Shown here piece after piece: positions 20,165-57,212 of a DNA stretch of 64,000 nucleotides. Below the pieces are notes generated by a model. The model saw nothing but the letters and a program-made list of their open reading frames with translations, had not been told where the DNA came from and did no database searches. Within the stretch, counting starts at the first letter, position 1; each line of letters starts with the position of its first letter. This DNA is from Pseudovirgaria hyperparasitica (taxonomy: Eukaryota), in NCBI GenBank assembly GCA_010093815.1, contig ML996576.1. One strand, 5' to 3'. The position numbers were made by a program, and so were the translations under genes.

Positions 20165-21988
20165 CTAAAAATCTAGCTCTACAAGTACTGATCGTGGCAT
20201 GGTACAACATGCCTTGATTCTGCTCCCTTCCTTATATCCGTCGCCTATACTACTCACTACTTGTCCTTGGAGCATTTGGATCTCACAGGCTCCGCAGGTG
20301 CCCTCCCTACATCCATAGTCCGGTTCAAGATTTTCCTTTTCCAATAGCTGGAGTAGCGATATTTTAGAGCTTCTCTTCCACGTGATTGTGCGCCTCGCGC
20401 GTTTCAGCACAATCTGAGATTGTTCTGGCAGCTCTTCCGTAGTGTCGAGCTGGGCTTTCGCTGAGGTATCTCTGGCAAATGATTCGGAATGGATAGATGA
20501 TTCATTCATTTTGCAGGCAAGCAAATGGTCGCGAGTCGCTGACGCGAAGGCATTTGAGCCACAAATATAAGCCACAGAGATACATCCTGCCAGCTCGATT
20601 GGGGTGATATTCAGAGGGTTGATCATGTACGAATTCCTCAACAAGTCTTCGTAGAAGACTCGACCAGGTCGACCACCGAAATCATAGTCGCGACCAAGAA
20701 CGTCTATCTCTGGACGAGGCCTGGTGAAAAAGCGAATGACTCGCAGGTTCGGAAACGAAGGGAGCTCACGCTGGAAAAGATGACCGTCGGTAGAGCCGTC
20801 ACGAGCAACATGGACGAACACTGCAGGCGTCCTAAGAAGCGTCTTATGGAGGGAATGCGCTTTGAGCATAGCTAGAAGAGGAGTAATTCCAATGCCATTG
20901 GATATGTACAGTTGCCGAGGAGGGAATTGGGGTTTCCAATCTAGCATGAATTTACCGCGTGGTGAAAGCGCACTGAGGATGACGCCTGGCACAGCATGCT
21001 CATGCATCCATAGAGAAGCCATGGCTTGTCGTTTGATGCTGAGTCGGTAGTGCGTCGGTGGCATGGACGGGTCAGTCCAGTCCGATAGTGACCATGACCG
21101 GATATCGCCAGTGGGTAATTTGACGGTAAGGAACTGACCCGGAAAGAAGTTTGCCAAGTCCAAGTTATCTGTGGCTTCAATGTAGAACGACTTAACATCT
21201 GACGATTCTTCAGTGACTGATGATATCCGTAAGTCTCGCCATCCCTGCCACGAGCCCTTTCCTTTCATCTCTTCGTCTTCGATCATGCTCAGTTTCCTCT
21301 CCAGGATTTGCCTATTCATGTTCTGTAGTACCGGGGCACTAAGGATGCGTTTTGCACGATGTTTCGTTGTTTGGTCCGCATTCGAGCTGAAGATCGTCTG
21401 TGCTATCATCGCAACCGGAATCAGCTGTCGCAACTGGCGCTGAGGTCGAACGATACGTCCCGAACTGCCAGGACCAATAGTCCCTCCTCGTATGACTTTC
21501 AGATAGACCCCACAGAGGCCTGACGCAGCGAGCTCTGCAAGCCACGCGCCTTTCTGTCCCAACCTCCAAGCTAAGCGGCTACATGGATTCCGCCCACCAC
21601 AAACCTCGAGCTGTACTCCTTGCCCGGCGAGCGTGTCCTCGAAGTCCCAGATGTCCCCAAGCATGACATCATGCTCGTTAACTCCAGGGGGAGCTTTTAT
21701 GGTTAAATTCTCCCCCCAATGCGCCCAATCCCACGCATCGCGAGCTATGCCGAGCCGAGATGTCCAGTAGTCGTAATGATCGGAAAATAAAGCGTATACT
21801 TGTGCATCATGAACAGCAGATCTATGACCTACAATACCATTGTTGGGCTCAAGACTCAAGGGCTCAGTGGAGGGTGAGCGAACAATTGCGGTCAAGGTCT
21901 TGTGGCCATGTATGTCATGATATGCCGGTTGCGACCGCGATACAGCCACAACTTGCAGCTGAGAAGCTTTGTGCTGGTCATTTGGCAT
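20165..21988 (-). CDS. MOSC-domain protein fused to FAD/NAD(P)-binding reductase and C-terminal 2Fe-2S ferredoxin
   Basis: MOSC motifs WGENLTI and GGRNPCSRL (conserved Cys), GVYLKVIRGG; FPGQFLTV, RSWSLS, SNGIGITP, YICGS; ferredoxin GCREGTCGAC...CC; intronless; start placed at MPNDQ. Confidence 0.85.
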   Translation of the reverse strand: MPNDQHKASQLQVVAVSRSQPAYHDIHGHKTLTAIVRSPSTEPLSLEPNNGIVGHRSAVHDAQVYALFSDHYDYWTSRLGIARDAWDWAHWGENLTIKAPPGVNEHDVMLGDIWDFEDTLAGQGVQLEVCGGRNPCSRLAWRLGQKGAWLAELAASGLCGVYLKVIRGGTIGPGSSGRIVRPQRQLRQLIPVAMIAQTIFSSNADQTTKHRAKRILSAPVLQNMNRQILERKLSMIEDEEMKGKGSWQGWRDLRISSVTEESSDVKSFYIEATDNLDLANFFPGQFLTVKLPTGDIRSWSLSDWTDPSMPPTHYRLSIKRQAMASLWMHEHAVPGVILSALSPRGKFMLDWKPQFPPRQLYISNGIGITPLLAMLKAHSLHKTLLRTPAVFVHVARDGSTDGHLFQRELPSFPNLRVIRFFTRPRPEIDVLGRDYDFGGRPGRVFYEDLLRNSYMINPLNITPIELAGCISVAYICGSNAFASATRDHLLACKMNESSIHSESFARDTSAKAQLDTTEELPEQSQIVLKRARRTITWKRSSKISLLQLLEKENLEPDYGCREGTCGACEIQMLQGQVVSSIGDGYKEGSRIKACCTMPRSVLVELDF

Positions 21989-22368
21989 TGGACAGGCTTG
22001 GAGTAGATTAAGACAAGCGGGTAAATTCACCGTGGGATCAAAGATGATGCTTGAGGATAACGAGATATTGGAAATATGCTCACTGTAATGCGTAGTCGGC
22101 GCCCTGGCATGTACAATTTGGGCGGCTGAGACGCTCAATGGAATTCACAGATTGACGAAGCTCATACTGCCCTTACTTTCGAAAGATCGGTATGAACGAC
22201 AGGACCTTGTCAAAACGCAATCGGAGTGCGATCCCTCGCCGTCGACCCACGCCGCTGCGGTCTCCATCGACTCAGTCATCGGTGGTAGCGATGCAACACA
22301 ATGCCTTATCTGACATTATCTGAAGGCTGGCATCAGCGTGGCTATGCTTTGTTCGTAACAACAGATGA

Positions 22369-22394
22369 TTATCGGCGAGGTTTATCGGCGAGGT
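22369..22394. promoter_or_regulatory. Tandem 13-bp repeat TTATCGGCGAGGT x2 in the divergent promoter; candidate Zn2Cys6 site
   Basis: Exact direct repeat; the same CGGCGAGGT core recurs at 25047, 38159 and 38225. Confidence 0.5.
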
Positions 22395-22834
22395 GAGTTA
22401 TTGATGAGGATGAAGCTGAGGTGAGGATGTTTCGCCTGACTAAACCAGAACTAGTCTAGATAGCTCGGATAAGTCATACTGCAGGTGGGTCTGTGCACTT
22501 AGTACGAGGGAATGTCCTACCCTGGACGTCTGACCTATTCTGAGAACGTTCCTAGCTTCAATACGCACGTGGATTAGACACAAACAAAAGAAACTCAGAA
22601 GCGAAAGCCATGAGCTTAACCAATAGATTGTCCTGCTCGGACCGGGCTAGGCACAGCCTTGCAAAGCTGCCGTACCGCAATGGGCCTGCTAGGGGAACGA
22701 ATTGGAATATAAAATAGTAAAGAAAAGTGACTTATAAGTCACGGTGTCTCTCACTTCACCGATTTTCTGTTACAGTTGTACAGCATCTCGTCAGGCAATC
22801 ATTCAAGGTTGACCCAATTCCCATCTTTTCGAAT

Positions 22835-24494
22835 ATGCGATTCAATCACTTCGTCATCGCCGTTGCATTGGCATCGGCCCGTTGCGTGCAAGGCCGTCCG
22901 AGTTCGCCGTCGGATTCTGTGTTACAGATCCTCTACTCTATACCTCAAGGCAACAACACTGAACTCAAGGGCCTTGTGCAGGAAGCACGTCCAATCATTG
23001 ATTCTATTGGCAGCCAAAAACCGCCAAACGATCAGGCACAGCGTAACGAGAATGCTTGTACAATTCTCAAAACTGTTCTGAGAGGTCACTACACCGATTC
23101 GACGAATCAAGTATCCTACGATACACTCCTTCAGAAGAACTAGTGAGTCCCACTCATATTAAGATGTGCCGTTTGCAAATACTAAGACTCATTCAAGTGC
23201 ATCCCAATGCCACCTTCCACCAGCTTGCTTTATTACACCAAACAGCAATGCTGCAGTCGCAATCACCCTCAAGATCATTGATCTTACTCAAGCGAAGTTC
23301 TCCGTCCGCTCAGGGGGACACAATGTAAATCCGGGCTGGGCAGGCGTCTCACACGGCGTGATAATCGACACGCAAGAGTTGAATACCATTCAGCTTCGTC
23401 CGGACAGATCCAGCGTACGAGTGGGCACCGGTAACCGCTTTGGTACTGTTCAGGAATACCTGGATCCATACAATGTGAGTGTGGTCTCTGGTCACACTGT
23501 CCAGCCCGGTGTGGGTGGTGTTCTTCTTGGAGGTGGGTTGCCTCTGGTGAGTACCTACACAGGGATGGGTGCCGACAACATCAAAAGCGCAGAGGTCATC
23601 ACCAGTGACAGTCGAGTTGTTATCGCCAGTGCGACAGAGAATCCTGATCTGTTCCGTGCACTCAAAGGTGGTGTCAACAACTTTGGTATAGTCACGCATT
23701 TCGAGCTTTATACTAGCAAAGTTCATGACATCTGGTTCCGCGCACTGGTATATTCATCTCTTGATCCCTTACCGGTCTTTGACGCTCTACAAAAAACCCA
23801 GGTGGCGATGGAGTCTGACGACAAAGCTGGATTGGTCTTCACGATTCTCCCTTTCGGAGGGTTCATGGTAGATTTTTTCTACGTTGAGCCTACCTATCAG
23901 CCCGAGGTATTCGCTGCGTTTGATGCTCTCACGCCAGTCTCTGCTATTCATGATGCTGTCAATGGCACTGTGTATTCAATCATGCAGAACCTGACCAACC
24001 ACCTCCCACCAGCAAATCGCTATAGCACTTCGTGCACAATCCGCGTTGATACAGATCTCTACACATCCGTGTACAACCGTTATCATGAGATGACACAGAA
24101 GTACTCAACGAATACTACGGCCTTTCAAATGGTAATGCATCCTTATGGATCGGCGACGACTCGCATCTCGAAGGAACGGGGTGGTAATGTAATGGGCGAT
24201 ATTAATGGGGCGCAAACAATTCTGACGTATGGTGCTCAATGGACTGACGACAGGGATAATGAGAAGATCTACGATATTGTAGATGAGATAACCCAAGCTA
24301 CTATCGATGAGGCGGAGCAGCGCGGGTTGGACGAAAAGTTCATCTTTGCAAATGGAGGATCGTTCACACAGAATGTCCTGGCTAGCTACGGAGAAGAGAA
24401 CCTGAAGCACATCCGCGCTGCAAGTAAGAAGTTTGACAGGAAGCAGATGTTTCAGAGCTTGCAGAATGGTGGGTTCCTGGTCAGCCGTGCATGA
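22835..24494 (+). CDS. Secreted FAD-linked oxidoreductase (BBE/VAO family)
   Basis: Signal-peptide-like MRFNHFVIAVALAS; FSVRSGGH (flavinylation His); VGGVLLGGG; LFRALKGGVNNFGIVT; intron 23143-23197. Confidence 0.9.
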
Positions 24495-25046: not shown

Positions 25047-25056
25047 AACCTCGCCG
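25047..25056. promoter_or_regulatory. CGGCGAGGTT motif (reverse strand) ~105 bp upstream of the NAD(P)-binding gene
   Basis: aacctcgccg; same motif as at 22372, 22385, 38159 and 38225. Confidence 0.4.
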
Positions 25057-25160
25057 GCCTCTAAGTCTCTAGCTACACTCACATTGCTTCCTTCCAAAAC
25101 ACTTGCGCAATAGGTTTCCACCAAATCTTTCGCTGAGCTTTGCACTTCAACCCTAACAAC

Positions 25161-25984
25161 ATGGACGAAGAAACCAAGAGACCTCGTGACAGCTCAGTTC
25201 ACATCCTCCTGATTGGTGCGTCTGGCTCTGTGGGCAAGCTCGTGCTGGAACAAGCCTTAAGCAGAGGTATGTACTCCATCCCGCACCCATCTGGACTGTA
25301 CAATTCCAACAGTCCACCTGCATAGGCCACGCTGTCACAGCCCTCGTCCGGAATCCGGACTCTCTCGACTATGTTCGTGGGAAACCCGCCTCCGAGAACC
25401 TCACAGTCCTCCAAGGAACTCCGCTCAACAAAGACGACTTACAAAAGGCAATCTCGCACATCAAAACGCATCCCCGACCGGCCGTAATCGTCACACTGAA
25501 CAACACGGCCAAAAGTGCCCAGGACCCTCCTCCTCCAGGTCAATGCCCACCACATCTTCAATACGACGTCCACAAGCTTCTCCTTCCGCTCATGTCGCAG
25601 CACCAGATCAACAAATTGGTTGTGCTGCAAGCTCTGGGCGTAGGGTCTTCGTGGCCCAATCTCGCTTTGCCTATTCGCCTGGCGGTCAAGTATACGTCTG
25701 TGCACTTCAGCTGGGATGACCACGCCGACGTGGACAGGTTTGTGAAGGCCTATGGTGATGACAACGATGTGCAGGGACACATCAAGTGGGTATTGGTGCG
25801 CAGTTGCATGTTCAGCAATGGACCCGCAAAAGAGGCCCATTGCTATGGTGAGGATGGAGTAGGGTTGCCGTGGTTCCCCAGTATTTCTCGTGCAAGCGTG
25901 GCCAAGTTTCTGTTAGATTCGTGCGAGAACGATGTGTGGGACAATAAGACACCTGTGGTTGCGAACAATGCTCCAAAAAGGTAG
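25161..25984 (+). CDS. NAD(P)-binding Rossmann oxidoreductase (BVR-B/AflX-AvfA-like), 254 aa
   Basis: ILLIGASGSVGKLV...GHAVTALVRNP after intron 25267-25325; WVLVR and ISRASVAKFL. Confidence 0.8.
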
Positions 25985-26268: not shown

Positions 26269-29200
26269 TTATTTGGCCAAAGTCTGGAGCGCAGCCAAAG
26301 ACTCACCAAAAGGAATACTGACAAGGTCCGCAGTCTCACTTGCAACATGCATTGCTTCCTCCACTGCCTTTAACATCCCTCCCTGCCTCATTGCATTTAA
26401 TCCAGAACTGATCCTTCTTCCTAAGATGGCAACCTGCTCGAAAGAGAACAAATCAACGTCATACTCCAGCCGTAAAGTGAGGATTGTGTCACTGATGGCC
26501 GAGAACTCAAACATGATGCCGAACTTCGCGCCCTCGGCCCACGATAGCACTGGCTGTAGTCCATCAATCGGTAATCTGGGACTATCACGGTTGTCGTGGA
26601 ATGTAACCATGGCGTCGAAAAGTGCGTGGTTGGGGTGCTCTGAGCCCGACACTGCAGCGCGCAGCGAATCATCGGAGCTCTGGCGCAGGACCTGCAGGAG
26701 TTGGTCCCATGGCAGGGCGTGCGCGAGTGCTGCTTGCGCAGACGTGTGGACTGAACGGACAAATGAATCGACGTCTGACTCCTTGGCCGGCTTATAGACA
26801 CGAATGGGGAAAGGCTGAAGGAAAAGGCCGACTGTGTTGAGATCTTCCGCCGAGCGGCCAAGATAGGGGGCGCCGAGAACCATATCGGTGTGAGAAGACC
26901 CCTCGATCTGCAGCGCGAGATATACTAGAGACAGAGCGGTCTGATGAAAAGTGACGCCTTGTCGGGAGTGCAGATCCTGCAGGATGGACATGGATTCAAT
27001 GGGAAGCATGTATAATTTTGACGAGCCGGAGTATGATGTACGAGGCCGTGAGAGATAGGGTTTATTGTGGTGCTCGATATCAGTCAAGTATGGGGACCAG
27101 AAAGCCGCCGAGTCCGCTTCTATGGGCATCATCCACTCTGTGTCTGAGTAGAAGCGTTGAGGTCGCGGTAACGTGTCCGCACCATTATATAAAGCGGCGA
27201 CTTCTTGAAGAAGGACCTCGAGAGTCTTCAAATCGCAGATTATGTGACTGATGCAGACTAGAAGCTGTTTCTCTGCCACCAGTACGCGAATCGGATAGTC
27301 GCTTGAGAGATCGAACTCGGTGTTGATGGCTTTTCGCAAGAGGAAGGAATCTACGGCCAAAACCTGGGGCGGCTTCTCGAATAGCAAACGTTGGACAACG
27401 TTTCCTCTCTGCCTGAACATTGATCGAAGAATGTCATACCTGGATAGAACAGTATTGAAAGCCGTGATAAGGCAGTCTCGATCAAGTTTTGAATCGTCGA
27501 GGTCACAAAGGTAGGAAACATTGAATGCTGAGGATCCCAGATCAGCCTGGTACTTCATGAACCAGTCACGCTCGATGGGGGACACGCTACTTTGTCCAAG
27601 TCTCGCGGAAACTGACCCATTATGAGATTTGGACAAGCGACGTGCACCTTTACCCATAATGACCCTCGCCATATCGGATAAGACTGGGTTCTGGATGACG
27701 CTCCGGATATTGACACGTTGCCTGAGTACTGAAGACAAGCGACTGGCGAGCTGAAGCTGTAAGATGGAATGTCCACCCAGTGAAAGGAAATTGGAGTCCT
27801 TGTGTATTTGAATGTCTCGATCCATCTTGAGGACGATGCGCCATACGTCTGCGATGATCTTTTCTGTGGGTGTGAGGACAGTCGACCCTAGTGTCGTTCG
27901 CTCCTTTTGTTCCAGCAAATCAAGAGCTTTGTAGTCAAGTTTGCCAGCAGAGGTAAGAGGGAAGTTCTTGAGGCGAATAATATGTCTCGGCATGGCGTAA
28001 GGAGGCAGTTCCTTTGCGAGATTCGACTTAATCGATGCTACGGTGGCAGTGGTAGTCCGAATGGCAGCGATCAGATAATCCTTGCGTTGAAAGATAGCAA
28101 CGCCATCGCACATTGGAAGCACTCTCGCTGCTCTAACCTCGAGATCATGTAAATCAAGTCGGTAACCGCGCAGCTTGATCTGACGATCGTTGCGGCCTAA
28201 TAAATGAATCTCACCAGTCGCAGGTTCGAAATATCCCAGGTCCCCTGTTCGATACATTTTTTCATTACTCTCAGGCAAAACTGCGTCGAGGAGAAACCGA
28301 GCTGCATTTTGCTCAGGTAGACCAATATATCCCTTCGAGACCTGTACACCAGCCAAGAATACCTCGCCAACAGCACCGGGAGGTAAGACTTGCAAGTTGC
28401 GGTCCAGGATATAGAGCCGCGAAGAGGGATTGGGATGCCCTAAGTTTACGCATTGGTCTGGGAGTAGTCGTTTGATTGTTGCCCCGCATGTAGCCTCTGT
28501 GGGTCCATACATATTATACAAAGATAGCTTCTTGCCCCATGTGTTGCAGACGGATTGCGGCACTTGTTCGCCGACGAGATATACCTATGGGTAACATTTT
28601 AGTCAGGCACAACATGATCTGGACAGGTAGGCTCACATTTTGGAGACTAGGAAAGTCGTGAGGCTCCAGTACTTTTGCAATTGACGGAGTCAGGATTGTA
28701 GATTGACTTTCACGCAAGTGCCCAAATGGATCTTCGGCATTGATTGGAGCAAGTCTTAGCGTCGCACCATAGCTCAGGGCAGAGAAGATCTCGTGGATAC
28801 TTCCATCAAAGACAGGGGACATGACCTGGGCCACAGTCACCCCAGGAGCGGCGAAAAGGCGCACTTGTTCATCTTTTTGGAAGGCGACGAGGCCCTTGTG
28901 AGTGCATCGGACAGCTTTGGGCTGACCTGTGGAGCCAGAGGTGAAGCACACATAAGCGAGACGGTCTGGTTGAGGCGAGCGTCGCCTAGCGAATGGCTGT
29001 CCACTGACGACACTGCGGTTGTAGGCTTGGACATTGCATGTGTCTGTCGGTGTTACGGACGAGAGAATCTCATCAATATATAGGAGCTGAGGCGCCGGCG
29101 CGTCTTCGGGACTCGTAGGACTATTTTTAACATATTCGATGTCCCCATTGCCTCGTCCGGGTATCAAAAAGACGCGTGCACCACTGCGCTTCAGGTTCAT

Positions 29201-43834: not shown

Positions 43835-44594
43835 TGCGGATTGAGTCTTGGACGGAATATGTGCTGCACTAATCAAGACGCGCGGTCCAAAGGTGCCTTT
43901 AAGGTTGTCGCGTCTGGCAGCTGAGGTCGTGCAATGTTTCAAGCTCGGTATTGATACAGGTAAGAAACAAGCAATAGACCACTTTTGTATCCACCCTGCT
44001 TACCTTGTGGACAAGCCTTGCCATCATCTGCGCCGCATATGAAAGTTCGCCCGTGCCTCAGTTTAGCCCCACGTCACTCTATCGGCCTTGGTGGAGATTG
44101 TTATTGAGGCTGCGTACCTGCGCGGTCTGCTAAACACACATCCACATCCTAGCGCTTACTCTAGTCTAAGACATTCGAACAAAGAGGGTCGCTTACATTC
44201 CTATGTTCATGACTCTTCCGCGTACAGCCAACGGCTTGTCTGGTGGCCTCTCTGGCTAACGCACACGCTTCGAACTGCTTCCGCAAAATATCGACGTGAA
44301 TGTTGTCGAGAAGGCAACCGATGAAGGTGTATCATCTCGGCTAGAGACACAAAAGAAACTATCAAGTTGCTCAATCAGCACACAATTGCATGCACGGATT
44401 CACTTTCGAGGTACGCTAGTGCCAAACAATATATCCGCTACACATTTATTTCGAACAGAAAACATGATCTATTTACCCACCCTTCCAAGACTGGAACGCT
44501 CCACATTTAATGAAATCTACGGTACATGTTGCGCATTTCCACGTTGGGCTTAAACCGAGAGCCTGTCTCTAAGCTCCGAGGGGAGAGCTCTTGT

Positions 44595-45965: not shown

Positions 45966-46702
45966 CTTTCTGCTATCGGTAGAGTCGTTCGACTCGTATC
46001 AGATGTACAAGTTACGATTGCTAAAGACGATTTGCATTCCAGAGGAAGTATGGAGAAGATTACAAGTAAGCCGAAGTCGAGGTTCACGCTGCTGAGCTGG
46101 CTATGCAGCCTTCATATGACCCCCATGCGGAGTCTTCGGTTATTGGCTGGGGCAGCAACATGGCTGAAATCTCACCCTGCAACGTGAGCGCAACCACTAC
46201 GACTATTTTTATCCAGCTGTGGATATCGATGTGTATCCTTGTAGTATTTGGGGTCTGAACTACGCAATCTTGGCGGTCTTACGTCCTGTCAGCGCTTCTG
46301 CAAAGGCGTCAACGGGTTTGACTTCCCTATAGTAGTTGTGAAGCCGAGGTATTGCAGCACGAGAAGCAATGTAGCCAGAATGAATGTCTCGGTCTTCGCT
46401 TTCATGTATTCTGGATTGGTCAACTCCCAAGGGGCTGATTGCGATGCTACATGGGGCAGGCGATAAGGGCAAAATCTACCGACCGGTCAGGTCCACAGTA
46501 ACACGACTCCACATATACTTTCTTATTTCAGTGTCAATGTGTTTCCCTTATTCAGCATACAGTCCTTTAAGTATAAAGTGGTCAGGTCTTCCCAGACTCA
46601 TATAGAATGTTACTGGATGTTACCTCCTGCTCAACATATACTCGCGTATTTCTCCTGGCCGATTTTTCAAATTATCATTTCCTCGAGATTCCTCACATAG
46701 TC

Positions 46703-48541: not shown

Positions 48542-50289
48542 GGTTGGAATCGTATCTAGAATGGGGACGCAACATATCAATATCCATTGGTCAAGCTGTT
48601 ATCTGAGCGAGCATCCCTAAAAAGTAATTCTTGAAGTATTGCGTCACTGGGAGTCTCTTCCCTGTTTGAAAGACTGGATACGTAATGAAATGTGGGTGGC
48701 CGCAATATGTCGCTTGGGTGTTCCCAGCTCCTGTGAAGACGCCAGTAGCGCAGGATCACACGTCAGCACAAGGGGGCATTCACGGTCCCCATAATTCGGT
48801 ATGAGGCATTCCAACCGCTTGAAAACTACCTCATACCTGGCTATGTTGAAGCTGAGAGTTAATATTATTGCTTTGCTAAGATCTAGGTCTGCAAGCATTC
48901 TCCACTCCATCTGGACCTCATCTACACGAGTCGCTGGAAGTGCACCTGAATTGATCTCTCAATCGTTTAGCGTACATATCAAACATTCTCATCAGGACAA
49001 TTTGGGTACCATATACATACACGTTTATATCGGTGTACTAATCAATCTTAGTGGGAACTGCCTGCCCCCGCGTACTAAATTCTAGTTAGCGCCGGGGTCA
49101 GAAATTCCTCCCGACTTCGATCCGTTCCCGCGCCAAACGCCTCGACTCAGCCTGCTTGTATCAATCTACACATACCAATCAGCCAGTCTTCTTACTGCCG
49201 AGAGGCTGAGAGCCTTGTACAGAGCAGGCGTTCTCGAGTGGGTCTGTCATTCACGCGATATGATCTTGCAGCCCTGATTGGATGAAAGAAACGGATCAAC
49301 CCACCATGACTGCATCAGTCCAGTTGGCTAATCAGTATGGAATTCTACTCTGTTGTCAGAGTGGATGCACTAACATGAACGAGCCTGCACCCTGCAGATA
49401 CTGAAGTTGGGCTGACGCTTCAGCTTCCAGGTCAAGGTGTAGCACCAGTAAGGCAAACGATTTTCGGAACTCGACCATTGCGGACCCTCGAAAACAAAGG
49501 CACATCGACCAGCTATGGTGTCGTAACGCCGTCTAGTGACCACATATTATAACATGGAAGGCTATGCGCGGATCTACACTGCACATCAAATTAAAAGAAG
49601 GAAGCAGGGCCGAATTTTGCAGCCCCCAAGGTCTGGGAATGGAGTCAGCAAGGCACACAATCTATGATCCATGCTCGAACAACGATCACAGTCATCAGAT
49701 GGCCTCACCCTGTACTTGCATGGATTCCAGTGCGGGATACCGTTTTCATCCGAGATCGAAGGCATTCCTCCACAACTTGCAGTGTTTTGCATCGATTGGC
49801 TTCTCACGCTCGAGGATGGATAAGCATAGCTGGTGCCCAAGCCTCCTAAACACATTATTGTCGCATGCAACAACGAACAGGGTCCAGTATGCGAGATGAT
49901 CGTGTCCGACATGCGGGCTCCCTTGGCTGTGACACATGTTCCCAAAAGTATCCCAGACAGACGATATCCGTCTGACTTAATCTTACTCTGGCATCTGAAT
50001 AGCAATTTACTAAACGTGTGTAGTCCGAATGTAACTTACATACTATGTATTAATCGGTATTGTCTCGTATCAAAAGCTGACGCATCGGCCGGCACGCGCT
50101 CCCTTGCAATCTCAACAAATGATGATTTTCCTCCACGCCGCAGAGGCATCTCACGTCGGCCAGTTCGTTCTCCAGTCTCAATCTTGATGTAAGCTGCACA
50201 TACCGCCTGAGCTCTAGGGAAGGAGTCGCGGCTGTCACAAACGGTTTGGGTGAAACTTGTAAACAGCCTTTCCTGAAATTTCCTTCGAT

Positions 50290-53200
50290 ATGTCGCCCGT
50301 AGCAGAAATGGGTCCATCGTCACTTCTTCAGGAGTCTTCTGCGCACTGGCTTCATACCATCGAATTCTCAGAGCAGAAAACACCAAGCTCACAGAAGCTT
50401 ACACCGCTCGTCTTCCGAAACTTGTCTGTTCACGGTCATGCAGTCACAGCGGATTTTCAGCATACATGCGGGAACTATCCGTCTGTGCTTCTGGGACGAG
50501 TCCAACATAGACATGCAAAAGACGTATGTATATTGAGATGCTTTGATGGTATCGTAAGAGAATCTCAGATGCACCTGATCCTTGGCAGACCTGGAAGTGG
50601 CTGCACTACACTCCTTAAAACCTTGACTGGAGAAATGGATGGCTTAATGCGGGATGCGGATAGTAAACTTGAGTACGGAGGTGATACTTGCCACCACTAT
50701 TTACAAGAGCACCAACTTACACCAACTTTAGAAATCAATTCTAATCGTCTGCGCAAGACATATCGAGATAGAGCTGTGTACCACGCCGAACAAACTGTGC
50801 ATTTTCCAGAGCTCACTGTACGTGAGACTCTGGAGTTCACTGCAGCAGCCGTCACTCCTGCGTCTCCTCAAGCGGGCGTGTCAAGGAATGATCACATACG
50901 GTCTTATGCTGATGCAACTATCAGACTATTCAGCCTCGAGAAGGTTGCTGATAGTAAGATAGGGGATGATCTTGTTCGAGGAATAAGCGGTGGTGAGCGC
51001 CAAAGGCTTAGTGTTGCAGAAGCCATGATGAAATGCTGTCAAATTCAGGCCTGGGACAATAGTACCCGTGGCCTTGATCATGCGACGGCCCTTTTCTTCG
51101 TCAAACTTCAACGTGCCATGTGTACTGTACTTCAGTCTGTGAGTATCATGTCACTTTATCAAGCATCGGAAGCAATGTACCAGGTGAGATCTGACCATCA
51201 ACCTCTCACATTCTGCTAATTATCACAGGAATTTGACTCGGTTTCCTTGCTATATGATGGATTACAGGTATACTTCGGTCCTACGAATAGGGCGAAGTCG
51301 TTCTTTGAGGACCTAGGGTTCATTTGCAAGCCCGACATGACCACACCAGATTTCTTAACATCCTTGACAAATCCCGCCGAAAGAATGATAGCGAAAGAGG
51401 CCCATAACCGTGTGCCTAGAACTGCCGCAGACTTCGAGCGGGTGTGGAAGTCGAGTAAGGAGTATGGCATGCTACTCCAGGAGATTGATGGACACTTCGT
51501 GTCCGACTCTGGAACCACCGAGTCTAAACCGTGCTCTAATCCTGTGATAAAACGGTAATGGCTAGATCCAGAGTGCCACCACGATCGCATGTTCGAAGTT
51601 AACGTTGCTTAGGTCGACATACATGATTCCCTTTGCTCGTCAGCTGGGGCTCTGTCTCATACGTGCAAGCCAAAGGCTCAAGCATAGCTATGTTGCCACC
51701 CTCTCGGGCATATCTGGGCTTGCTATTCTGGGTCTCATCATCGGGAGTGTTTTTTACGATCTCCAACCCAACACAGGGAACTTCTTTAGTCGAGGAGCCA
51801 TCATCTTCTTCGCCACTATTCTGAATGCCAACGCCAGTGCTTTTGAGGTATTTGAAATGTCTGAGTCATGCAAAGGGCGAATACTAGAGCTAACTCCAAG
51901 TCAGGTATTGACAATGTGGGCACAAAGACCAATCGTGGAGAAGCAGTCTCGCTACTCTCTCTATCATCCGTCGGCTGAGGCTCTTGCATCTATGCTAGCT
52001 GATCTACCGTCTAAGATAATCGCATCTTTGGCATTCAATTTGTCAATCTACTTACTTACCAACCTACGACGGGCGCCTGCTGCATTCTTTACCTTCTACC
52101 TGTTTGGTTTTACGTGTCATCTGACGATGTCAATGTTCTTTCGAATGGTAGGGTCGCTATCACGGACCTTTGCGCAATCAATGGTTCCAGTCTCGGTTTG
52201 GATCCTGAACCTAATCATAACCTCAGGATTTGTGCTCCCATCACAAGACATGCCGCCTTGGATCCGGTGGATCAGCTATCTGAATCCTATGGCATACGCA
52301 TTCGAGTCTGTCATGGTAAATGAAGTAGGGTCACAGTTTACCCAACCGCAGAGGAGGCAAGAGCTAATCGTTAAATCTAGTTTTCGGGTCGCTATTTTTC
52401 GTGCTCAGGGTTCATCCCTTCTGGTCAGTCCTACAACCAAGCCAATGCTCCGCAGACATGCGATTCGGTTGGCTCAGTCCCGGGCGGAACAGAAGTCAAC
52501 GGGTCTCGCTACATCGAATCCCAGTTTTCGTTCAAGATTGAGAATCTTTGGCGTAACTACGGTATTCTGGTTGCTTTCATGATATGCTTTTGCATTATTC
52601 ATCTCCTTGCTGCAGAGTTCATCTCTGCCCAACGTCCACGAGGCGACGTCTTGATTTTCCAAAAAAAGTCTAGCTCAAGACGGGGAGCTATCAGTCAGGT
52701 CGATGAAGAAATTGGCCGAATTACTGGTAGTGAGGAGAGTCCGAATGCAGGGCTAGACTCGCCAAGTACTATCGTACAGACAGAAGAAATTCCCAGTGCG
52801 TTGCATAAGGGCTCAATACTTACCTGGGATGACGTTGGGTACAGGATTGGAACCAAGTTATCGTCTAAACAGATACTATCGGGAATCGATGGATGGGTAA
52901 AGCCTGGCACGTTGACAGCGCTCATGGTATGTCTTATCTCATCATCGATATCGGTGTGTCACTAATCGCGACCATCAAGGGTGCAACAGGCGCGGGAAAG
53001 ACGACATTACTCGATGTTCTGGCAGCCAGAACGAGAGTTGGGGTGGTCACCGGGAACATCAGCGTCAACGGAAAAGTCAGGGACGCCGCCTTCCAGAGAC
53101 AGACAGGTTTTGTGCAACAAACAGACGTACATGTAGAAACATGTACGGTGCGCGAAGCATTAATGTTCAGCGCTACCTTAAGGCAGCCTAGATCTAAGAC

Positions 53201-54948
53201 AAGATTAGAGAAAGCCCAACATGTCGATTCGATTATCAACACCTTAGGTATGGATGCATATGCCGATGCCGTAGTGGGCACTCCTGGCGCAGGTAAGGTC
53301 TCACTTTTAGGACCATAAAATTCATGTGGCTGACTATACAAGGTTTGAACATCGAACAACGCAGGAAGCTGTCAATTGCAGTTGAGCTTGCAGCTGAACC
53401 AGATGTCCTTCTATTCTTGGATGAACCCACTTCGGGTCTTGATAGCCAGACAGCCTGGCTCATATGCTGTCTTCTACAAAAGCTTGCAAGAGCAGGTCAG
53501 GCGATTCTGTGTACCGTCCATCAACCATCAGCCCTCGTATTTGATGTGTTCGATCATGTTCTAATCCTTGGGCCAAGAGGACGGCAGCTTTACTTTGGCG
53601 CAACTGGACCCTCCTCTTGTCATCTGGTGGACTACTTTGAAAGCAATGGCGCACGAAAGCGAATAAAGGGAGAGAACACGGCTGAATGGCTGTTAGAAAT
53701 CTCCTGTTCTGCACCCACTTCAAGCACGCAGAAGGATTGGGCCGAGGTTTGGGAAGATTCGGAAGAGCACAGACAGATCAAAGCATCTTTGGGATATCTA
53801 ACAAGATCCAAGTCGACTCAGGAGTCCATACCCCCAACCGCTCCGACGCAAAAAGAGTATGCTACACCTTTACTTGAGCAGATCCTATGGGTCACATATC
53901 GCAACCTCCAGCAAGAATGGCGCATTCCGTCATACCTCTACCCGAAGGTCCTACTCAGTGTTGGAACAGTATGTCTAGTTCTTCATGTTTGATATCCATT
54001 GGCACGTACTCATGATATCCCATAGGCATTCTTCATCGGCGTCTCCTTCTGGAGGCCAGATTCAAGCATCCAGGGCATCCAGAACCAGATCTTCGCCATC
54101 TTCTGTCTGATGATCCTGTTTGGTAGTCTTTGCCAGCTCATTATAGACCGGTTCGCCCAACGTCGTGCGGCTTTCGAAGCTCGGGAGCATCTGTCTAAGA
54201 CATTTTCCTCTTCGGCGTTTCTCGTGGCAAGTATACTGGGCGAAATCCCGTCGCAAACTGTGATTGCCCTCTTGATATATGTCTCGTGGTATTATCCGAT
54301 AGGCTTCTACAGGCACGCAGGGGCAAGTATACACGCACGAGGTGGCCTGATATTTCTGTTCATATGGTGCTACTGCGTATTCATGTCCACGCTGTCGCTG
54401 CTAGTCATTGCCGGCATCGGAGACACTAGCGTTGCTGTCAATATCGCCCAGCTCATTTACTCACTATCGCAAGTCTTTTCCGGGTAAGTAAAAACTTCTT
54501 ATACTGCCCTGCCATACTGAGGGCTAAGAACTTCGCTGATGGTGCATCTAGAGTTCTCATAAGGCCCTCCGCATTACCGTCGTTCTGGAAATTCATGAAC
54601 CGAGTGACGCCTTTGACATACCTCATAGGGGGCATATCAACGGTGGCAATGTGGGGAGCAGATGTTCGATGCAGGCCATCCGAGCTAGTTGAAGTCCCGC
54701 TCCCCGCGAGAAACACCTGTGGGGAATACCTTCAGGCCTACATCGCTACGGCAGGCGGGTACGTTGTGGACCCTTCAGCCACTGCTTCCTGCTTCTATTG
54801 CTCGGTGGCCAGTTCGGACGCCGTACTCTATGCGCTGGGCTTTAAGTATGACGAGCGGTGGCGTAATGTGGGTTTGATGCTCGCGTATATTGTGTTCAAT
54901 GTCGCGGGCATTGCGTTTCTTTTCTGGCTCAAAGTGCGTCGTTCGTAG
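50290..54948 (+). CDS. PDR-type (ABCG) full-size ABC transporter
   Basis: NBD1 [15 protein letters not shown] and [12 protein letters not shown]2 [18 protein letters not shown] and [11 protein letters not shown]; two TMDs; about 9 introns, with frames consistent by eye. Confidence 0.92.
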
Positions 54949-55553
54949 TTACCTTTGTGGGTTATACCATTCTTGTTTCAGGGGTTCAGGGATGCTGGCC
55001 TCGCTTATGATAGGATCAAGCTGTTTGGCTGAGTTACTTATATTTCTGGTAATTAGTGTCTTTACAATCACTAATATCACTTACCTACCTGTTACAGTCA
55101 CCAATATATCACACCACTCACGTATTGTGCGTAGTCTCGCACAGTGGACGGGAATGCTGTGGTTACCGGGTTGGGTTATCATCACCCCCCGTTGTGAGCA
55201 AACAAACTGATATCGTCACTATAGACAAGTTGTCCAATTGTGGCACAGAGCACGTCGGCAGTAGCACGTGAATGTCACAGCATCGACTACGAAATCGACT
55301 ACGAGAGTCCTAGATCTGCGTGAGGCCTGCGGGCTTTGGGAATCGAAATGCGATCAAAAATTGGTTGATAAGAAGATCTTCGATCAAGAAGTCGACTCCT
55401 TAGGTAGCACTAAGTGATGAATAGCGATTGCTTGCATTTCGAGACTAGCATGGAAAGCACCTCTATGGACACCAACCGCCGCATCAGTTCACCCGCATTC
55501 CATGATGACATCTGAAACGATCAACATCATAGATTCCCCACAACGCTATTCAA

Positions 55554-57212
55554 TTAGACATTTTCAGTCACCTGCTTTGCCAGCGTCTTGAGGCGGATTA
55601 CGCATCCATTCACATTCCTCATCGTCAGCATATACTTCCCCTCATACACCGTCGCATCGCCGGCACTGATCTCATACTGCTGGAACAGCCTCACAATCAT
55701 ATACGAGGATTCCATCATGGCCTTGTGCTTTCCAAGACACGATCGCCTACCAACGCCGAATGGCACGTACTCATACGTACCGGGCATGAAACTCTTGTCT
55801 AGCCAGCGCTCGGGCTTAAATTCGTGGGCGTCCGGACCGTAGGTACGGGTTTGGCGGTGCAGGGTATAGATCGAGGTGCGGAACAGTGAGCCTGCGGGAC
55901 AGAAAATTGGGGATTTGCCATCGGAGCCGCCGCCACTGGGGAGAATGGTGTCTTTCATAGCAACACGGGCGATGTGTGGGAAGACAGGATGGAGGCGCAG
56001 GGCTAGCACTTGATCGGCATGCATTTACAGATATGGTAATTGGCATACTCACTCTCATTAAGAATGGCTTGGAGGTATCGCATGCGGCCAAGGTTTTCGA
56101 ACGAGGGATCTTTGGTACCTAGGGATATGATCTCGGTCTGAAGTTGACGCTGGATATCCTTGTGGCGTGATAGCAGGTGCACAACGTTACATATAAGGAC
56201 GCTTGTAGTGTCTTGGGATCCCATCATGGCTTGGACGATCTGGTCACGAAGCAACTTCCTGTCGCCGGTGACTTCAGCCATCTTGATCAACAGCGTGCGC
56301 GGTTTCGTCAGTGTTCCATCCCCTGGATCGGCCTCCTTCTGTTTTGCAAGGTAGCGAGCTCGATGCTCCAGTGCGCGATCCACGTAGTAGTCAGCAAATT
56401 GATGGCTCTTTTTGCATGCCTCGAACCATGATCTGTTTGGTATGAGATGTCTCAAGGGGCCGACAGCCATTCGTAGACCACAACCGGCGATTCCAGCTTG
56501 GAATGCATCGACAAACCCCTTGGCGTGTTGTGGACACTTGCCGGACAGTGCTCCAATGGGCTCGCCAAAGAGGAATGAGGTGCTCAAGTCCAGATACTTA
56601 AGAACGATTAGTTTCCATGGCGAAAGCTGTTGAACCAAAGCATACCAGATCGAATACCAAGGGCTGTAAATCGAATGCGGTGTCATCCTTTGGGAACATG
56701 CGCATCATCTGGTACAGACCAGCGTGCATCAACGACAGGTCCGAGATATTGCTTGAATGGAAGAAAGGTTTCAGCAATGAACGCTTCCATTTCGCCTCCT
56801 CCCCGTCAGTTGTCAGAAAACCTGCTCCACAGAATGGCGCCCAGGTGGGCAGTCGCATCTCCTGAACTCCCCAATCACTTCCGCCGAGGACTGAAGCGAG
56901 GTTTTTTGGTTCGATCGAATTTATGCACTGGGTTGCCCATGCAATTCCTTGGAATGTCGGTCCGTACAGATCGAATCGGGCGAAATTCTCTTCGTTGAAG
57001 CTGTTGTTCTTGATTGAGAGCCCGGTCTTCAGGATCAAATCTAGACCGAAGATCGGGTCACGATGTTTGTACATCGGCGGCGATTGCGTGCCATACTTTG
57101 AGTTGCGAGAAGCCGAGCTTATTCGTCTGTATATGTAATATACGATGATGCAAAGGAGAACAACACTGGTCAATCTAGCAGGTTTAGCTGGCACTTTGAC
57201 CGGAATGTACAT
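55554..57212 (-). CDS. Cytochrome P450 (CYP52-clan-like)
   Basis: HRDPIFGLD, SIEPKNL, GFLTTDG, FLFGE, GSQDTT, KPERW and heme motif PFGVGRRSCLG; two introns. Confidence 0.88.

What the first reader, a model, noticed from the sequence alone, without database searches (positions are those of the whole stretch)
20165..57212. Candidate new diketopiperazine cluster: ETP-type core (T-C-A-T-C NRPS + GliC-like P450 + Zn2Cys6) with a non-ETP tailoring set
Seen: an NRPS, GliC-type P450, Zn2Cys6 regulator, TetX-like FMO, BBE oxidase, NAD(P)-oxidoreductase, MOSC reductase and SRPBCC-like protein, followed by three more P450s and an ABC exporter. Known: T-C-A-T-C NRPSs (AtaP of acetylaranotin, AclP of aspirochlorine) together with GliC-type P450s form the core of ETP pathways. 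Inference: I do not recognise this gene combination from any characterised cluster, so it may make an undescribed oxidised DKP or pyrazinone.
Basis: partly seen in the sequence, partly recalled or inferred. Interest (0 to 1): 0.85.

Follow-up and report, generated by a model that had tools for sequence, protein, structure and literature searches.

The report
Sulfur-free diketopiperazine gene cluster, orphan family
This is a real, transcribed fungal gene cluster that pairs the peptide synthetase and P450 typical of gliotoxin-like toxin pathways with a different, sulfur-free set of oxidising and reducing enzymes; the same gene set recurs in many other fungi and its product is unknown.

Summary
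RNA contigs confirm nine introns and cover the eight core genes.

The conserved core spans 20165-40079:
- MOSC-FNR-2Fe2S reductase
- secreted BBE/VAO-type FAD oxidase
- NAD(P)-binding protein
- T-C-A-T-C NRPS
- TetX/AbsH3-like FMO
- Zn2Cys6 regulator
- secreted Bet v 1/SRPBCC-fold protein
- P450

Orthologues of the P450 sit beside the same kind of NRPS in loci that carry the sulfur genes of epipolythiodioxopiperazine (ETP) pathways. No such gene was found in any scanned ORF of this window.

The combination is not unique. NRPS, FMO and FAD oxidase co-occur in Kalmusia, Byssothecium, Daldinia, Annulohypoxylon and others. The MOSC and NAD(P) genes recur in two environmental fungal contigs.

The NRPS belongs to a well-supported clade separate from the Aspergillus niger NRRL3_00036 / Botrytis BcNRPS1 clade. 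That clade is linked to two unidentified yellow compounds.

The likely product is an oxidised, sulfur-free cyclo(Phe-Phe) derivative; this is inferred.

Nothing tested supports or excludes the three further P450s, the ABC transporter and the membrane protein (42-57 kb) as members.

Verdict: a new variant of a known kind, of moderate interest.

The parts
20165..21988 (-). MOSC(YiiM-like)-FNR-2Fe2S fusion reductase, 607 aa, single exon
   Evidence: Pfam finds MOSC and Fer2. PDB relatives are YiiM for residues 62-285, and flavohaemoprotein, phthalate dioxygenase reductase and P450-RhF reductase for residues 289-629. The R-x-P-C-S-(K/R)-L-A motif aligns with YiiM. The ESM Atlas holds the 607-aa model letter for letter. 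An RNA contig covers 20134-22410 without a joint. Homologues lie next to the NRPS in L009 (49% id) and L016 (44% id over 607 aa).
22835..24494 (+). Secreted BBE/VAO-type FAD-linked oxidase, 534 aa; exons 22835-23142 and 23198-24494
   Evidence: Pfam finds FAD_binding_4. The model equals the deposited protein P0241. The intron is confirmed by RNA contigs. It has an N-terminal signal-like peptide and an RSGGH motif. Of its ten best homologues (44-48% id), eight lie on contigs of the same length as an NRPS or FMO homologue.
25161..25984 (+). NAD(P)-binding protein (NAD_binding_10, atypical SDR/NmrA-like), 254 aa; exons 25161-25266 and 25326-25984
   Evidence: Pfam. The intron is confirmed by RNA and the model was built. 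Homologues of 36% id lie beside the NRPS in L009 and L016. There is no solved relative at E<=0.001.
26269..31233 (-). NRPS, T-C-A-T-C, 1613 aa; exons 31233-29319, 29247-28637 and 28584-26269
   Evidence: Domain order from Pfam. The spliced model gives 1613 aa. Deposited protein P0001, also 1613 aa, is 100% identical over the exon searched. Both introns are confirmed by RNA. The motifs HHxxxDG (258-264), SHIICD (1288-1293) and both carrier serines are conserved across 23 homologues.
31727..33023 (+). Class A flavin monooxygenase (TetX/AbsH3-like), 413 aa; exons 31727-31757 and 31813-33023
   Evidence: Pfam finds FAD_binding_3. PDB relatives are AbsH3 and Tet(X). The model equals deposited protein P0121. 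The intron is confirmed by RNA. Fourteen homologues of 55-64% id share a contig length with an NRPS homologue, and two have adjacent locus tags.
34884..36059 (+). Zn2Cys6 transcription factor, 375 aa; exons 34884-34964 and 35013-36059
   Evidence: The spliced product carries a complete CX2CX6CX6CX2CX6C motif. Pfam finds Zn_clus weakly on exon 2 alone. The intron is confirmed by RNA. A 28%-identical homologue sits at the edge of L016. No middle-homology domain was detected.
36590..37388 (-). Secreted Bet v 1/SRPBCC-fold protein of no named family, 250 aa; exons 37388-37184 and 37137-36590
   Evidence: The model was built and its intron is confirmed by RNA. Only 15 relatives were found among 1.84 billion representatives. 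No Pfam family. The fold model has pLDDT 73 and its top matches are all Bet v 1/PYL/CSBP/norcoclaurine synthase types. A weak homologue occurs in L016 (E 5e-9).
38459..40079 (+). GliC/AtaC-type cytochrome P450 ('P450a'), 524 aa; exons 38459-38608 and 38655-40079
   Evidence: Pfam finds p450. The model was built and its intron is confirmed by RNA. Orthologues lie beside the NRPS in L009 (50%), L007 (45%), L016 (45%) and L012 (41%); every other P450 compared is at most 33% identical.
42069..43868 (-). Cytochrome P450 'b' (ORF span; start and introns not refined); membership uncertain
   Evidence: Pfam finds p450, E 1e-52. The haem-cysteine motif FEHGPRNCLG is present. No counterpart above 30% id in related loci.
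44595..45870 (-). Fung_rhodopsin-domain membrane protein (two ORF pieces); membership uncertain
   Evidence: Pfam finds PF20684 on both pieces. Genes of the same Pfam family lie near the NRPS in L003, L015 and L016, but no sequence match was found at E<=0.01.
46577..48541 (+). Cytochrome P450 'c' (three ORF pieces); membership uncertain
   Evidence: Pfam finds p450 on the last piece. The haem motif GGGYGACPG is present.
49540..55210 (+). Full-size PDR (ABCG) transporter, many exons (span approximate); membership uncertain
   Evidence: Pfam finds ABC_trans_N, ABC_tran x2, ABC2_membrane x2 and PDR_CDR.
55554..57212 (-). Cytochrome P450 'd' (three ORF pieces); membership uncertain
   Evidence: Pfam finds p450 on two pieces. 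The haem motif FGVGRRSCLG is present. The ATG at 57212 was read from the translation.
22373..22395 (-). Candidate cis-element AACCTCGCCG (exact copy 22373-22382) with a one-mismatch tandem copy (22386-22395), in the divergent MOSC/FAD-oxidase promoter
25047..25056 (+). Candidate cis-element AACCTCGCCG, 114 nt upstream of the NAD(P)-binding gene ATG
38160..38234 (.). Two inverted exact copies of AACCTCGCCG (38160-38169 on the minus strand, 38225-38234 on the plus strand) in the divergent SRPBCC/P450a promoter

Best explanation
The window carries one member of a conserved, uncharacterised family of fungal diketopiperazine clusters. The family keeps the two-gene core of Phe-Phe ETP pathways (a single-A-domain T-C-A-T-C NRPS and a GliC/AtaC-type P450) and has a sulfur-free redox tailoring set in place of the sulfur machinery.

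Proposed mechanism:
1. The single A domain loads the same amino acid, probably L-Phe, on both carrier domains. C1 makes the dipeptidyl thioester and the terminal C domain releases cyclo(Phe-Phe). This is inferred from domain order, intact motifs and a conserved specificity code.
2. The P450 hydroxylates the diketopiperazine ring, as proposed for AtaC and GliC. This is inferred from orthology.
3. With no glutathione S-transferase present, the hydroxylated or acyl-imine/enamide intermediate is worked on by four enzymes. These are the TetX/AbsH3-like flavin monooxygenase (hydroxylation or epoxidation), the secreted FAD-linked oxidase (dehydrogenation or oxidative ring closure), the NAD(P)-binding reductase, and the self-sufficient MOSC-FNR-2Fe2S enzyme. 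For the last I propose reduction of an N-O or comparable oxidised function. The order of steps and the substrates are inferred.
4. The Bet v 1-fold protein binds or shapes a hydrophobic intermediate. This is speculative.
5. The 375-aa Zn2Cys6 factor regulates the core, possibly through AACCTCGCCG sites. This is also speculative.

Shown here: the genes, their splicing and transcription, the conservation of the core gene set, and the absence of ETP sulfur genes from the ORFs scanned.
For: Genes and domains.

Gene models and transcription: contigs of runs X3 and X4 skip nine GT..AG/CT..AC intervals that DNA run X1 does not skip. They lie over the MOSC, FAD oxidase, NAD(P), NRPS, FMO, TF, SRPBCC and P450a genes.

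Synteny:
Locus tags are adjacent in Kalmusia (N0V90_012108 and _012109) and Daldinia eschscholtzii (Daesc_005052 and _005053).
- Eight of the ten best FAD-oxidase homologues share a contig length with an NRPS or FMO homologue, among them Kalmusia N0V90_012112.
- L009 has MOSC, NAD(P), FMO, NRPS and P450 in a row. L016 has TF, MOSC, NAD(P), an SRPBCC-like gene, Fung_rhodopsin, NRPS and P450.

ETP link and contrast:
- Four of 11 distinct fungal loci with usable flanks carry ETP hallmark genes within 10 kb of the NRPS (L004, L006, L007/8, L012).
- The window has none in any ORF scanned.
- P450a orthologues of 41-45% id occur in two of those ETP-type loci, L007 and L012.

Substrate:
- The ten specificity positions read DGHIYVMCGK in the window, in 73 of 99 fungal homologues and in ETP-type loci L004, L006 and L012.
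- AtaP and AclP have one A domain for L-Phe with identical signatures (PMC10086836, passages read).
- Phe was predicted for the Monilinia homologue (PMC8988988, passages read).

Phylogeny: the window NRPS falls in a 19-row group with SH-aLRT 100 that is separate from the 12-row A. niger/Botrytis group, also SH-aLRT 100. FastTree on 111 rows agrees.
Against: - No chemistry is known for any member of this clade, so everything after DKP formation is inference from enzyme families.
- I placed the specificity positions using GrsA numbering recalled from memory, and no named AtaP, AclP or GliC sequence was compared directly.
- The whole genome is not held, so sulfur genes elsewhere cannot be excluded.
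- 'Same contig' rests on equal contig lengths, except in Kalmusia and D. eschscholtzii where locus tags are adjacent.
- FMO was not seen in L016, and the FAD oxidase was not seen in L009 or L016, within the DNA held.
- MOSC co-location is shown in only 2 of 11 loci, and L016's NRPS lies outside the window's clade.
- The tree groups were drawn after seeing the first tree.
- MOSC-FNR-Fer2 fusions are common in Ascomycota and bacteria, so the architecture alone says little about the substrate.
- RNA evidence comes from one sample of one study, and contigs cannot show co-regulation.
Confidence: 0.6

Rival explanations
1. The whole 37-kb stretch drawn by the first reader (20165-57212) is one cluster. 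On this view the three further P450s, the Fung_rhodopsin-type membrane protein and the PDR transporter tailor and export the same metabolite.
For: These genes follow P450a after a 2-kb gap, and all are classes typical of tailoring or export. All three P450s keep the haem-cysteine motif. More genes of a secondary-metabolism type follow, such as a second FAD_binding_4 oxidase at about 61.0-62.6 kb. L016 also has a second P450 and a Fung_rhodopsin gene near the NRPS. The A. niger relative's cluster includes a transporter (PMC8151901, abstract and Results read).
Against: None of these genes has a counterpart above 33% id in any related locus. The exact AACCTCGCCG element is absent from their promoters. 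They were outside the 20 kb laid with RNA contigs, so not even transcription is known. Flanks of related loci reach at most 10 kb, so this is a weak negative.
Confidence: 0.35
2. The cluster is a functional orthologue of the A. niger NRRL3_00036-00042 / Botrytis BcNRPS1 / Monilinia EETBC cluster and makes the same unidentified yellow compounds (reported masses 409.1384 and 425.1331).
For: The two share five gene families: T-C-A-T-C NRPS, FAD monooxygenase, P450, NAD(P)-binding protein and Zn2Cys6 TF, plus an uncharacterised protein (PMC8151901 abstract and Results; PMC8988988 Table 2 passage). NRPS identity is 43% and FMO identity 48% to A. niger proteins. The specificity code is the same in most homologues.
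Against: The two NRPS groups are separate, each with SH-aLRT 100. FMO identity falls into a 55-64% tier and a 46-50% tier. The published A. niger and Monilinia gene lists include no MOSC or BBE-type gene. The Monilinia TF is 757 aa with a middle-homology region, whereas this one is 375 aa. Evdokias et al. reported synteny for NRPS orthologues above 50% identity.
Confidence: 0.15
3. It is a split ETP pathway. The sulfur-handling genes (GST, gamma-glutamyl cyclotransferase, dipeptidase, C-S lyase, dithiol oxidase) lie elsewhere in the genome, and the product is a sulfur-bridged diketopiperazine.
For: The NRPS and P450 are homologous to those of ETP-type loci. Published work on the Monilinia, Botrytis and Sclerotinia relatives assumed an ETP product (PMC8988988, PMC6941272, passages read). 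Some ETP genes are known to lie outside their clusters, for example AtaS and a possibly missing AtaK (PMC10086836, passage read).
Against: ETP hallmark genes lie within 10 kb of the NRPS in the four ETP-type loci. They are absent from the ORFs scanned in this 64-kb window and from L009 and L016. A different tailoring set is conserved in their place. The genome could not be searched.
Confidence: 0.1

Closest known systems
Aspergillus niger NRRL3_00036-NRRL3_00042 cluster (Evdokias et al. 2021, PMC8151901; listed as 'unnamed yellow metabolite' in PMC12368960)
   Same: Both have a T-C-A-T-C NRPS with FAD-binding monooxygenase, P450, NAD(P)-binding protein, Zn2Cys6 TF and an uncharacterised protein. 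Neither gene list includes ETP sulfur genes. In both cases the product structure is unknown.
   Different: The NRPS is only 43% identical and lies in a separate, well-supported clade. The window adds a MOSC-FNR-2Fe2S reductase and a secreted FAD-linked oxidase that are conserved in its own clade. The A. niger cluster is experimentally tied to two compounds; this one has no chemistry.
Monilinia laxa EETBC / Botrytis cinerea Bcnrps1 / Sclerotinia sclerotiorum homologous cluster (PMC8988988, PMC6941272, PMC8467525)
   Same: The NRPS architecture is the same, with Phe predicted. The neighbours are a P450, a UbiH-type FAD oxidoreductase, a small NAD-binding protein, a Zn2Cys6 TF and an unknown protein of about 221 aa.
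   Different: These belong to the A. niger-type clade. Their authors called them ETP-type from NRPS phylogeny alone. Their gene lists have no MOSC or BBE-type gene. Their TF is twice as long. PMC8467525 was seen only as a search listing.
Acetylaranotin (ata) and aspirochlorine (acl) ETP clusters (review PMC10086836, passages read)
   Same: Both use a single-A-domain NRPS acting on L-Phe twice and a GliC/AtaC-type P450 as the first tailoring step. Orthologues of the window's P450 sit in environmental loci with AtaL, GST, GliI-like and GliT-like genes.
   Different: No GST, dipeptidase, C-S lyase, dithiol oxidase or AtaL/GliH was found in any scanned ORF of the window. The tailoring set is FMO, FAD oxidase, NAD(P) reductase and MOSC reductase instead.
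YiiM/YcbX/mARC-type MOSC reductases
   Same: The MOSC domain aligns with YiiM (PDB 5yhh), including the R-x-P-C-S-K/R-L motif. As in bacterial fusions, it is joined to its own FNR and 2Fe-2S electron chain.
   Different: The known members reduce N-hydroxylated bases and amidoximes in detoxification (recalled, not from a call). Here the gene is a conserved neighbour of a diketopiperazine NRPS. My two full-text searches found no paper describing that.

Membership tests
ETP (gli/ata/acl-type) biosynthetic cluster | Diketopiperazine-forming NRPS; for the Phe-Phe subtype, a single A domain | tested here: met
   Pfam domain order is T-C-A-T-C. Both C-domain motifs and both carrier serines are intact. 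The NRPS is homologous (35-43% id) to NRPSs of loci with ETP hallmark genes.
ETP (gli/ata/acl-type) biosynthetic cluster | GliC/AtaC-type P450 | tested here: met
   The support is indirect. P450a is 45% identical to the L007 P450, which is directly followed by a Pyr_redox_2 ORF (an AtaTC-like arrangement). It is 41% identical to the L012 P450 beside the GliI-like gene. Other P450s are at most 33% identical. No named GliC sequence was compared.
ETP (gli/ata/acl-type) biosynthetic cluster | Sulfur insertion and processing genes: GST (GliG), M19 dipeptidase (GliJ), PLP C-S lyase (GliI), dithiol oxidase (GliT), GliH/AtaL | tested here: not met
   No GST, Peptidase_M19, Aminotran_1_2, Pyr_redox_2 or AtaL hit occurred among 150 of the 254 ORFs of at least 75 aa, or among the 44 gene ORFs. 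The rest, which I did not scan, I left out as other-frame or antisense ORFs inside genes already assigned. The same scan found these families in L004, L006, L007 and L012. The rest of the genome could not be searched.
A. niger NRRL3_00036 / BcNRPS1 / EETBC-type cluster | T-C-A-T-C NRPS flanked by FAD monooxygenase, P450, NAD(P)-binding protein and Zn2Cys6 TF | tested here: met
   All five are present within 20165-40079. The published gene lists were read in PMC8151901 and PMC8988988.
A. niger NRRL3_00036 / BcNRPS1 / EETBC-type cluster | NRPS orthology (same clade; the authors saw synteny above 50% identity) | tested here: not met
   The NRPS is 43% identical to the A. niger protein over the exon searched. 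The window's group and the A. niger/Botrytis/Cucurbitaria group are each one side of a branch with SH-aLRT 100.
A. niger NRRL3_00036 / BcNRPS1 / EETBC-type cluster | NRPS-dependent yellow compounds of mass 409.1384 and 425.1331 | not testable with these tools
   This needs metabolite analysis.
Unnamed MOSC/FAD-oxidase-type clade (Kalmusia, Byssothecium, Daldinia, Annulohypoxylon, Apiospora, Periconia, L005, L009) | NRPS inside the clade | tested here: met
   The clade has 35 rows with support 100 in FastTree and 19 rows with SH-aLRT 100 in IQ-TREE. The window is an early branch within it.
Unnamed MOSC/FAD-oxidase-type clade (Kalmusia, Byssothecium, Daldinia, Annulohypoxylon, Apiospora, Periconia, L005, L009) | Co-located FMO of the 55-64% tier and FAD-linked oxidase of the 44-48% tier | tested here: met
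   The evidence is contig-length matches plus adjacent locus tags in Kalmusia and D. eschscholtzii.
Unnamed MOSC/FAD-oxidase-type clade (Kalmusia, Byssothecium, Daldinia, Annulohypoxylon, Apiospora, Periconia, L005, L009) | Co-located MOSC-FNR-2Fe2S reductase | tested here: inconclusive
   It is seen in L009, which is in the clade, and in L016, which is outside it.

The most novel reading that the evidence does not exclude
The ETP core (Phe-Phe NRPS plus GliC-type P450) has been captured by a different, sulfur-free chemistry that is conserved across at least two fungal classes. In this chemistry a self-sufficient molybdenum enzyme (MOSC-FNR-2Fe2S) acts as a dedicated biosynthetic reductase of an N-hydroxylated, N-oxide or similar diketopiperazine intermediate. 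Working with a TetX-like monooxygenase and a secreted FAD oxidase, it would yield a structurally new class of oxidised cyclo(Phe-Phe) metabolites. That would be the first MOSC enzyme assigned to a fungal natural-product pathway.
Probability: 0.3. Interest if true: 0.7.

Novelty: new variant of a known kind. Interest (0 to 1): 0.5.

Why it matters
Published work on the Botrytis, Monilinia and Sclerotinia relatives labels NRPSs of this architecture 'ETP toxin' genes. This locus and its relatives show that the same NRPS-P450 core also occurs with a conserved sulfur-free tailoring set, so that label can mislead.

The family is widespread in Pleosporales, Xylariales and allies, and environmental fungi. 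It is transcribed here in culture-derived RNA and has no known product, which makes it a concrete target for heterologous expression.

A MOSC-type molybdenum reductase as a conserved cluster member would, if functional in the pathway, add a new enzyme class to fungal natural-product chemistry.

The host is a hyperparasite of rust fungi, so a role in fungus-fungus antagonism is conceivable. It is untested.

Tried and rejected
- Earlier notes of this scan held nothing by place, sequence or words.
- No whole genome is held for the window, so sulfur genes elsewhere could not be sought.
- Accession look-up for neighbouring genes in named genomes was unavailable. Co-location therefore rests on contig lengths and two sets of locus tags.
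- The ESM Atlas gave only generic P450 clusters for P450a and did not help to type it.
- No RNA holder was listed for the stretch. Two runs of unrecorded kind then proved to be spliced when laid.
- CGG/CCG pair motifs with spacers of 0-12 are not enriched in the intergenic regions.
- The AACCTCGCCG element came from a post-hoc k-mer screen and is not found in L009 or L016. I treat it as a lead only.
- Literature searches returned nothing on a MOSC gene in a fungal cluster: 'MOSC + diketopiperazine + P450 + NRPS' and 'MOSC domain + gene cluster + secondary metabolite'.
- 'NRRL3_00036' returned only the two A. niger papers, so no later structure was found in the library searched.
- The NAD(P)-binding protein has no solved relative at E<=0.001.
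- Pfam found nothing for the ORFs at 33235-33591, 34402-34746, 58841-59521, 62095-62574 and 63426-63998.
- The pyrazinone idea has no supporting feature. The NRPS ends in a C domain and has no reductase domain.

Full report
**Source and observation.** The window comes from Pseudovirgaria hyperparasitica. The largest NRPS exon is 100% identical to a deposited 1613-aa protein of that species, and the deposited FMO and FAD-oxidase proteins map exactly onto the window. Both end coordinates of the finding are gene ends: 20165 is the stop of the MOSC gene and 57212 is the ATG of the last P450. The left flank (1-19.3 kb) holds ordinary genes: an O-methyltransferase, a T5orf172/MUG113 protein, a copper amine oxidase, a CAF1 nuclease, a PAK-type kinase and a CH-domain protein. 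The left border at about 20 kb is therefore reasonable.

**Gene models and transcription.** I spliced the NRPS by hand to 1613 aa and predicted introns for the P450 and for an unknown gene. Two public runs of unrecorded kind (X3 and X4; one sample, one study) were laid on 20100-40099 together with a DNA run (X1).
- Their contigs skip nine short intervals with GT..AG or CT..AC ends that the DNA contigs do not skip, so they derive from spliced RNA.
- The joints confirm both NRPS introns. They also confirm one intron each in the FAD oxidase, NAD(P)-binding gene, FMO, TF, unknown gene and P450a, and an extra minus-strand intron at 33217-33290.
- With these joints the models give FAD oxidase 534 aa and FMO 413 aa (both equal to the deposited proteins), NAD(P)-binding protein 254 aa, and TF 375 aa with a complete Zn2Cys6 motif.
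- The MOSC gene is a single exon of 607 aa, a sequence the ESM Atlas holds letter for letter.
- All eight core genes are thus transcribed in that one sample. Contigs cannot give expression levels or show co-regulation.

**What the proteins are.**
- NRPS: the domain order is T-C-A-T-C. HHxxxDG in C1, SHIICD in the terminal C domain and both carrier serines are conserved in 23 homologues.
- FMO: its nearest solved relatives are AbsH3 and Tet(X) enzymes.
- FAD oxidase: a secreted FAD_binding_4 protein nearest to EncM and 6-hydroxy-D-nicotine oxidase. No BBE C-terminal domain was detected.
- MOSC protein: a YiiM-like MOSC domain with the R-x-P-C-S-K/R-L motif, then an FNR module, then a 2Fe-2S domain. 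This architecture is common in Ascomycota and bacteria.
- Unknown gene at 36590-37388(-): it encodes a 250-aa protein with a signal peptide and has only 15 relatives among 1.84 billion representatives. It has no Pfam family. A model of its 74%-identical relative (pLDDT 73) matches only Bet v 1/PYL/START-type folds.

**Is the grouping real?** Three homologue searches and one metagenome scan bear on this.
- FMO: homologues fall into a 55-64% tier and a 46-50% tier. In the upper tier, 12 named genomes and 2 unnamed contigs share a contig length with an NRPS homologue. Kalmusia (N0V90_012108 and _012109) and Daldinia eschscholtzii (Daesc_005052 and _005053) have adjacent locus tags.
- FAD oxidase: there is a distinct top tier of ten homologues at 44-48%, and the next are at most 38%. 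Eight of the ten share a contig length with an NRPS or FMO homologue, among them Kalmusia N0V90_012112. Daldinia vernicosa and Lophium do not.
- Metagenome loci: among 80 loci fetched with an NRPS alignment, 18 are fungal-type. They collapse to 11 distinct loci with usable flanks: L001-3, L004, L005, L006, L007/8, L009, L012, L013, L014, L015 and L016/17.
- L009 has MOSC (49% id), NAD(P) (36%), FMO (55-58%), NRPS (42%) and P450 (50%) in a row.
- L016 has TF (28%), MOSC (44% over 607 aa), NAD(P) (36%), a weak match to the SRPBCC-like gene (E 5e-9), a Fung_rhodopsin gene, NRPS (39%) and P450 (45%).
- FMO was not seen in L016, and the FAD oxidase was not seen in either locus, within the DNA held.

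**Relation to ETP pathways.** Pfam scans of the other fungal loci found ETP hallmark genes within 10 kb of the NRPS in 4 of the 11.
- L004 and L006 have Peptidase_M19. L006 also has Pyr_redox_2.
- L007/8 has a Pyr_redox_2 ORF directly after the P450, plus Aminotran_1_2.
- L012 has Aminotran_1_2, an O-methyltransferase, GST_N_2, AtaL and a second P450.
- The window's P450a is 45% identical to the L007 P450 and 41% to the first L012 P450. All other P450s compared, including the window's other three, are at most 33% identical.
- A review (PMC10086836, passages read) states that AtaC is part of the fused AtaTC protein and is proposed to bis-hydroxylate cyclo(Phe-Phe). It also states that AtaP and AclP each have a single A domain for L-Phe with identical signatures.

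The 'GliC-type P450' reading is thus supported indirectly. In contrast, no GST, M19, Aminotran_1_2, Pyr_redox_2 or AtaL domain was found in the window. I scanned 150 of the 254 ORFs of at least 75 aa and the 44 gene ORFs. The rest, which I left out as other-frame or antisense ORFs inside genes already assigned, were not scanned.

**Substrate.** I read ten specificity positions by motif, using GrsA numbering recalled from memory. They give DGHIYVMCGK in the window, in 73 of 99 fungal homologues and in ETP-type loci L004, L006 and L012. Together with the review and the Phe prediction for the Monilinia enzyme (PMC8988988, passages read), L-Phe is the likely substrate and cyclo(Phe-Phe) the likely first product. 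This is inference.

**Phylogeny.** I built trees on the region of the largest exon. FastTree on 111 rows puts the window in a 35-row clade with support 100. That clade also holds L009, Periconia, Apiospora, Kalmusia, Byssothecium, Daldinia and Annulohypoxylon. IQ-TREE on 53 rows that I chose from those 111 gives this group (19 rows) and the A. niger/Botrytis/Monilinia/Cucurbitaria group (12 rows) SH-aLRT 100 each. The four ETP-type loci are scattered in the remainder. The groups were defined after seeing the first tree, and the root is arbitrary.

**Literature.**
- The sister group has been described. The M. laxa 'EETBC' consists of an unknown 221-aa protein, a P450, a 757-aa TF, a 221-aa NAD-binding protein, a 425-aa UbiH-type oxidoreductase and a T-C-A-T-C NRPS. 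Its product was assumed to be an ETP (PMC8988988, passages read).
- In A. niger, overexpressing TF NRRL3_00042 gives a yellow pigment with masses 409.1384 and 425.1331. These are lost on deleting NRPS NRRL3_00036, and the structures are unsolved (PMC8151901: abstract, Results, Discussion and figure legends read).
- The product was still 'unnamed yellow metabolite' in 2025 (PMC12368960, passages read).
- A search for 'NRRL3_00036' found only these two papers. None of the gene lists read includes a MOSC or BBE-type gene. Two searches for MOSC in a fungal cluster context found nothing relevant. Supplements were not consulted.

**The right-hand block (42-57 kb).** P450b, the Fung_rhodopsin-domain protein, P450c, the PDR transporter and P450d are real genes with intact motifs. 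No related locus has a counterpart above 33% id. They lack the exact AACCTCGCCG element found four times in core promoters. They were not covered by the one RNA lay. Their membership is open. Further right lie a small secreted ORF and a second FAD_binding_4 oxidase, so the right border is not defined.

**Verdict.** It is wrong in implying that the combination is unique, and it probably over-extends the cluster. I rate it a new variant of a known kind: a conserved, transcribed, orphan diketopiperazine cluster family whose distinguishing members are a MOSC-FNR-2Fe2S reductase and a secreted FAD oxidase. The mechanism beyond DKP formation and P450 hydroxylation is inferred from enzyme families only.

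Noticed in passing
window 33000-34100 (-): A spliced minus-strand RNA lies between the FMO and the TF (intron 33217-33290, CT..AC ends). The longest spliced ORF is only about 83 aa and has no Pfam family. It may be a small protein, a UTR intron or a non-coding RNA.
   Followed up: partly
window 22373-22382(-), 25047-25056(+), 38160-38169(-), 38225-38234(+); near copy 22386-22395(-): The 10-mer AACCTCGCCG occurs exactly four times in 64 kb, always in promoters of core cluster genes. Its 7-base core is the only 7-mer shared by all five core promoter regions (shuffled expectation 0.02). It is absent from the right-block promoters and from L009 and L016.
   Followed up: partly
window 61005-62574 (+): A second FAD_binding_4 oxidase gene, without a signal peptide, is 54% identical over 61 aa to the cluster's FAD oxidase.
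   Followed up: no
window 58841-59521 (+): A small ORF with a signal-like N-terminus and several cysteines has no family hit.
   Followed up: no
L007 3707-5799 (-): A GliC-like P450 is directly followed on the same strand by a Pyr_redox_2 ORF. This resembles the fused AtaTC of the acetylaranotin cluster. Aminotran_1_2, MFS and ABC genes are nearby.
   Followed up: partly
L015 791-8746 (-) and 17753-23026: A T-C-A-T-C NRPS of this family sits next to a highly reducing PKS, a BBE-domain oxidase and a Fung_rhodopsin gene. This may be a hybrid cluster variant.
   Followed up: no
window 44595-45870 (-); L003 2442-3689; L015 22023-23026; L016 8637-9529: Fung_rhodopsin-domain membrane proteins recur near NRPSs of this family, in 3 of 11 distinct loci plus the window. 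There is no detectable sequence match between them at E<=0.01.
   Followed up: partly
P0118 (Monosporascus sp. MG133): A 2013-aa gene model carries both the NRPS domains and a p450 domain. It is either a fusion or a merged model of the adjacent NRPS and P450.
   Followed up: no
window 3323-4915 (+): A 531-aa ORF with a T5orf172/MUG113 domain lies in the housekeeping left flank.
   Followed up: no
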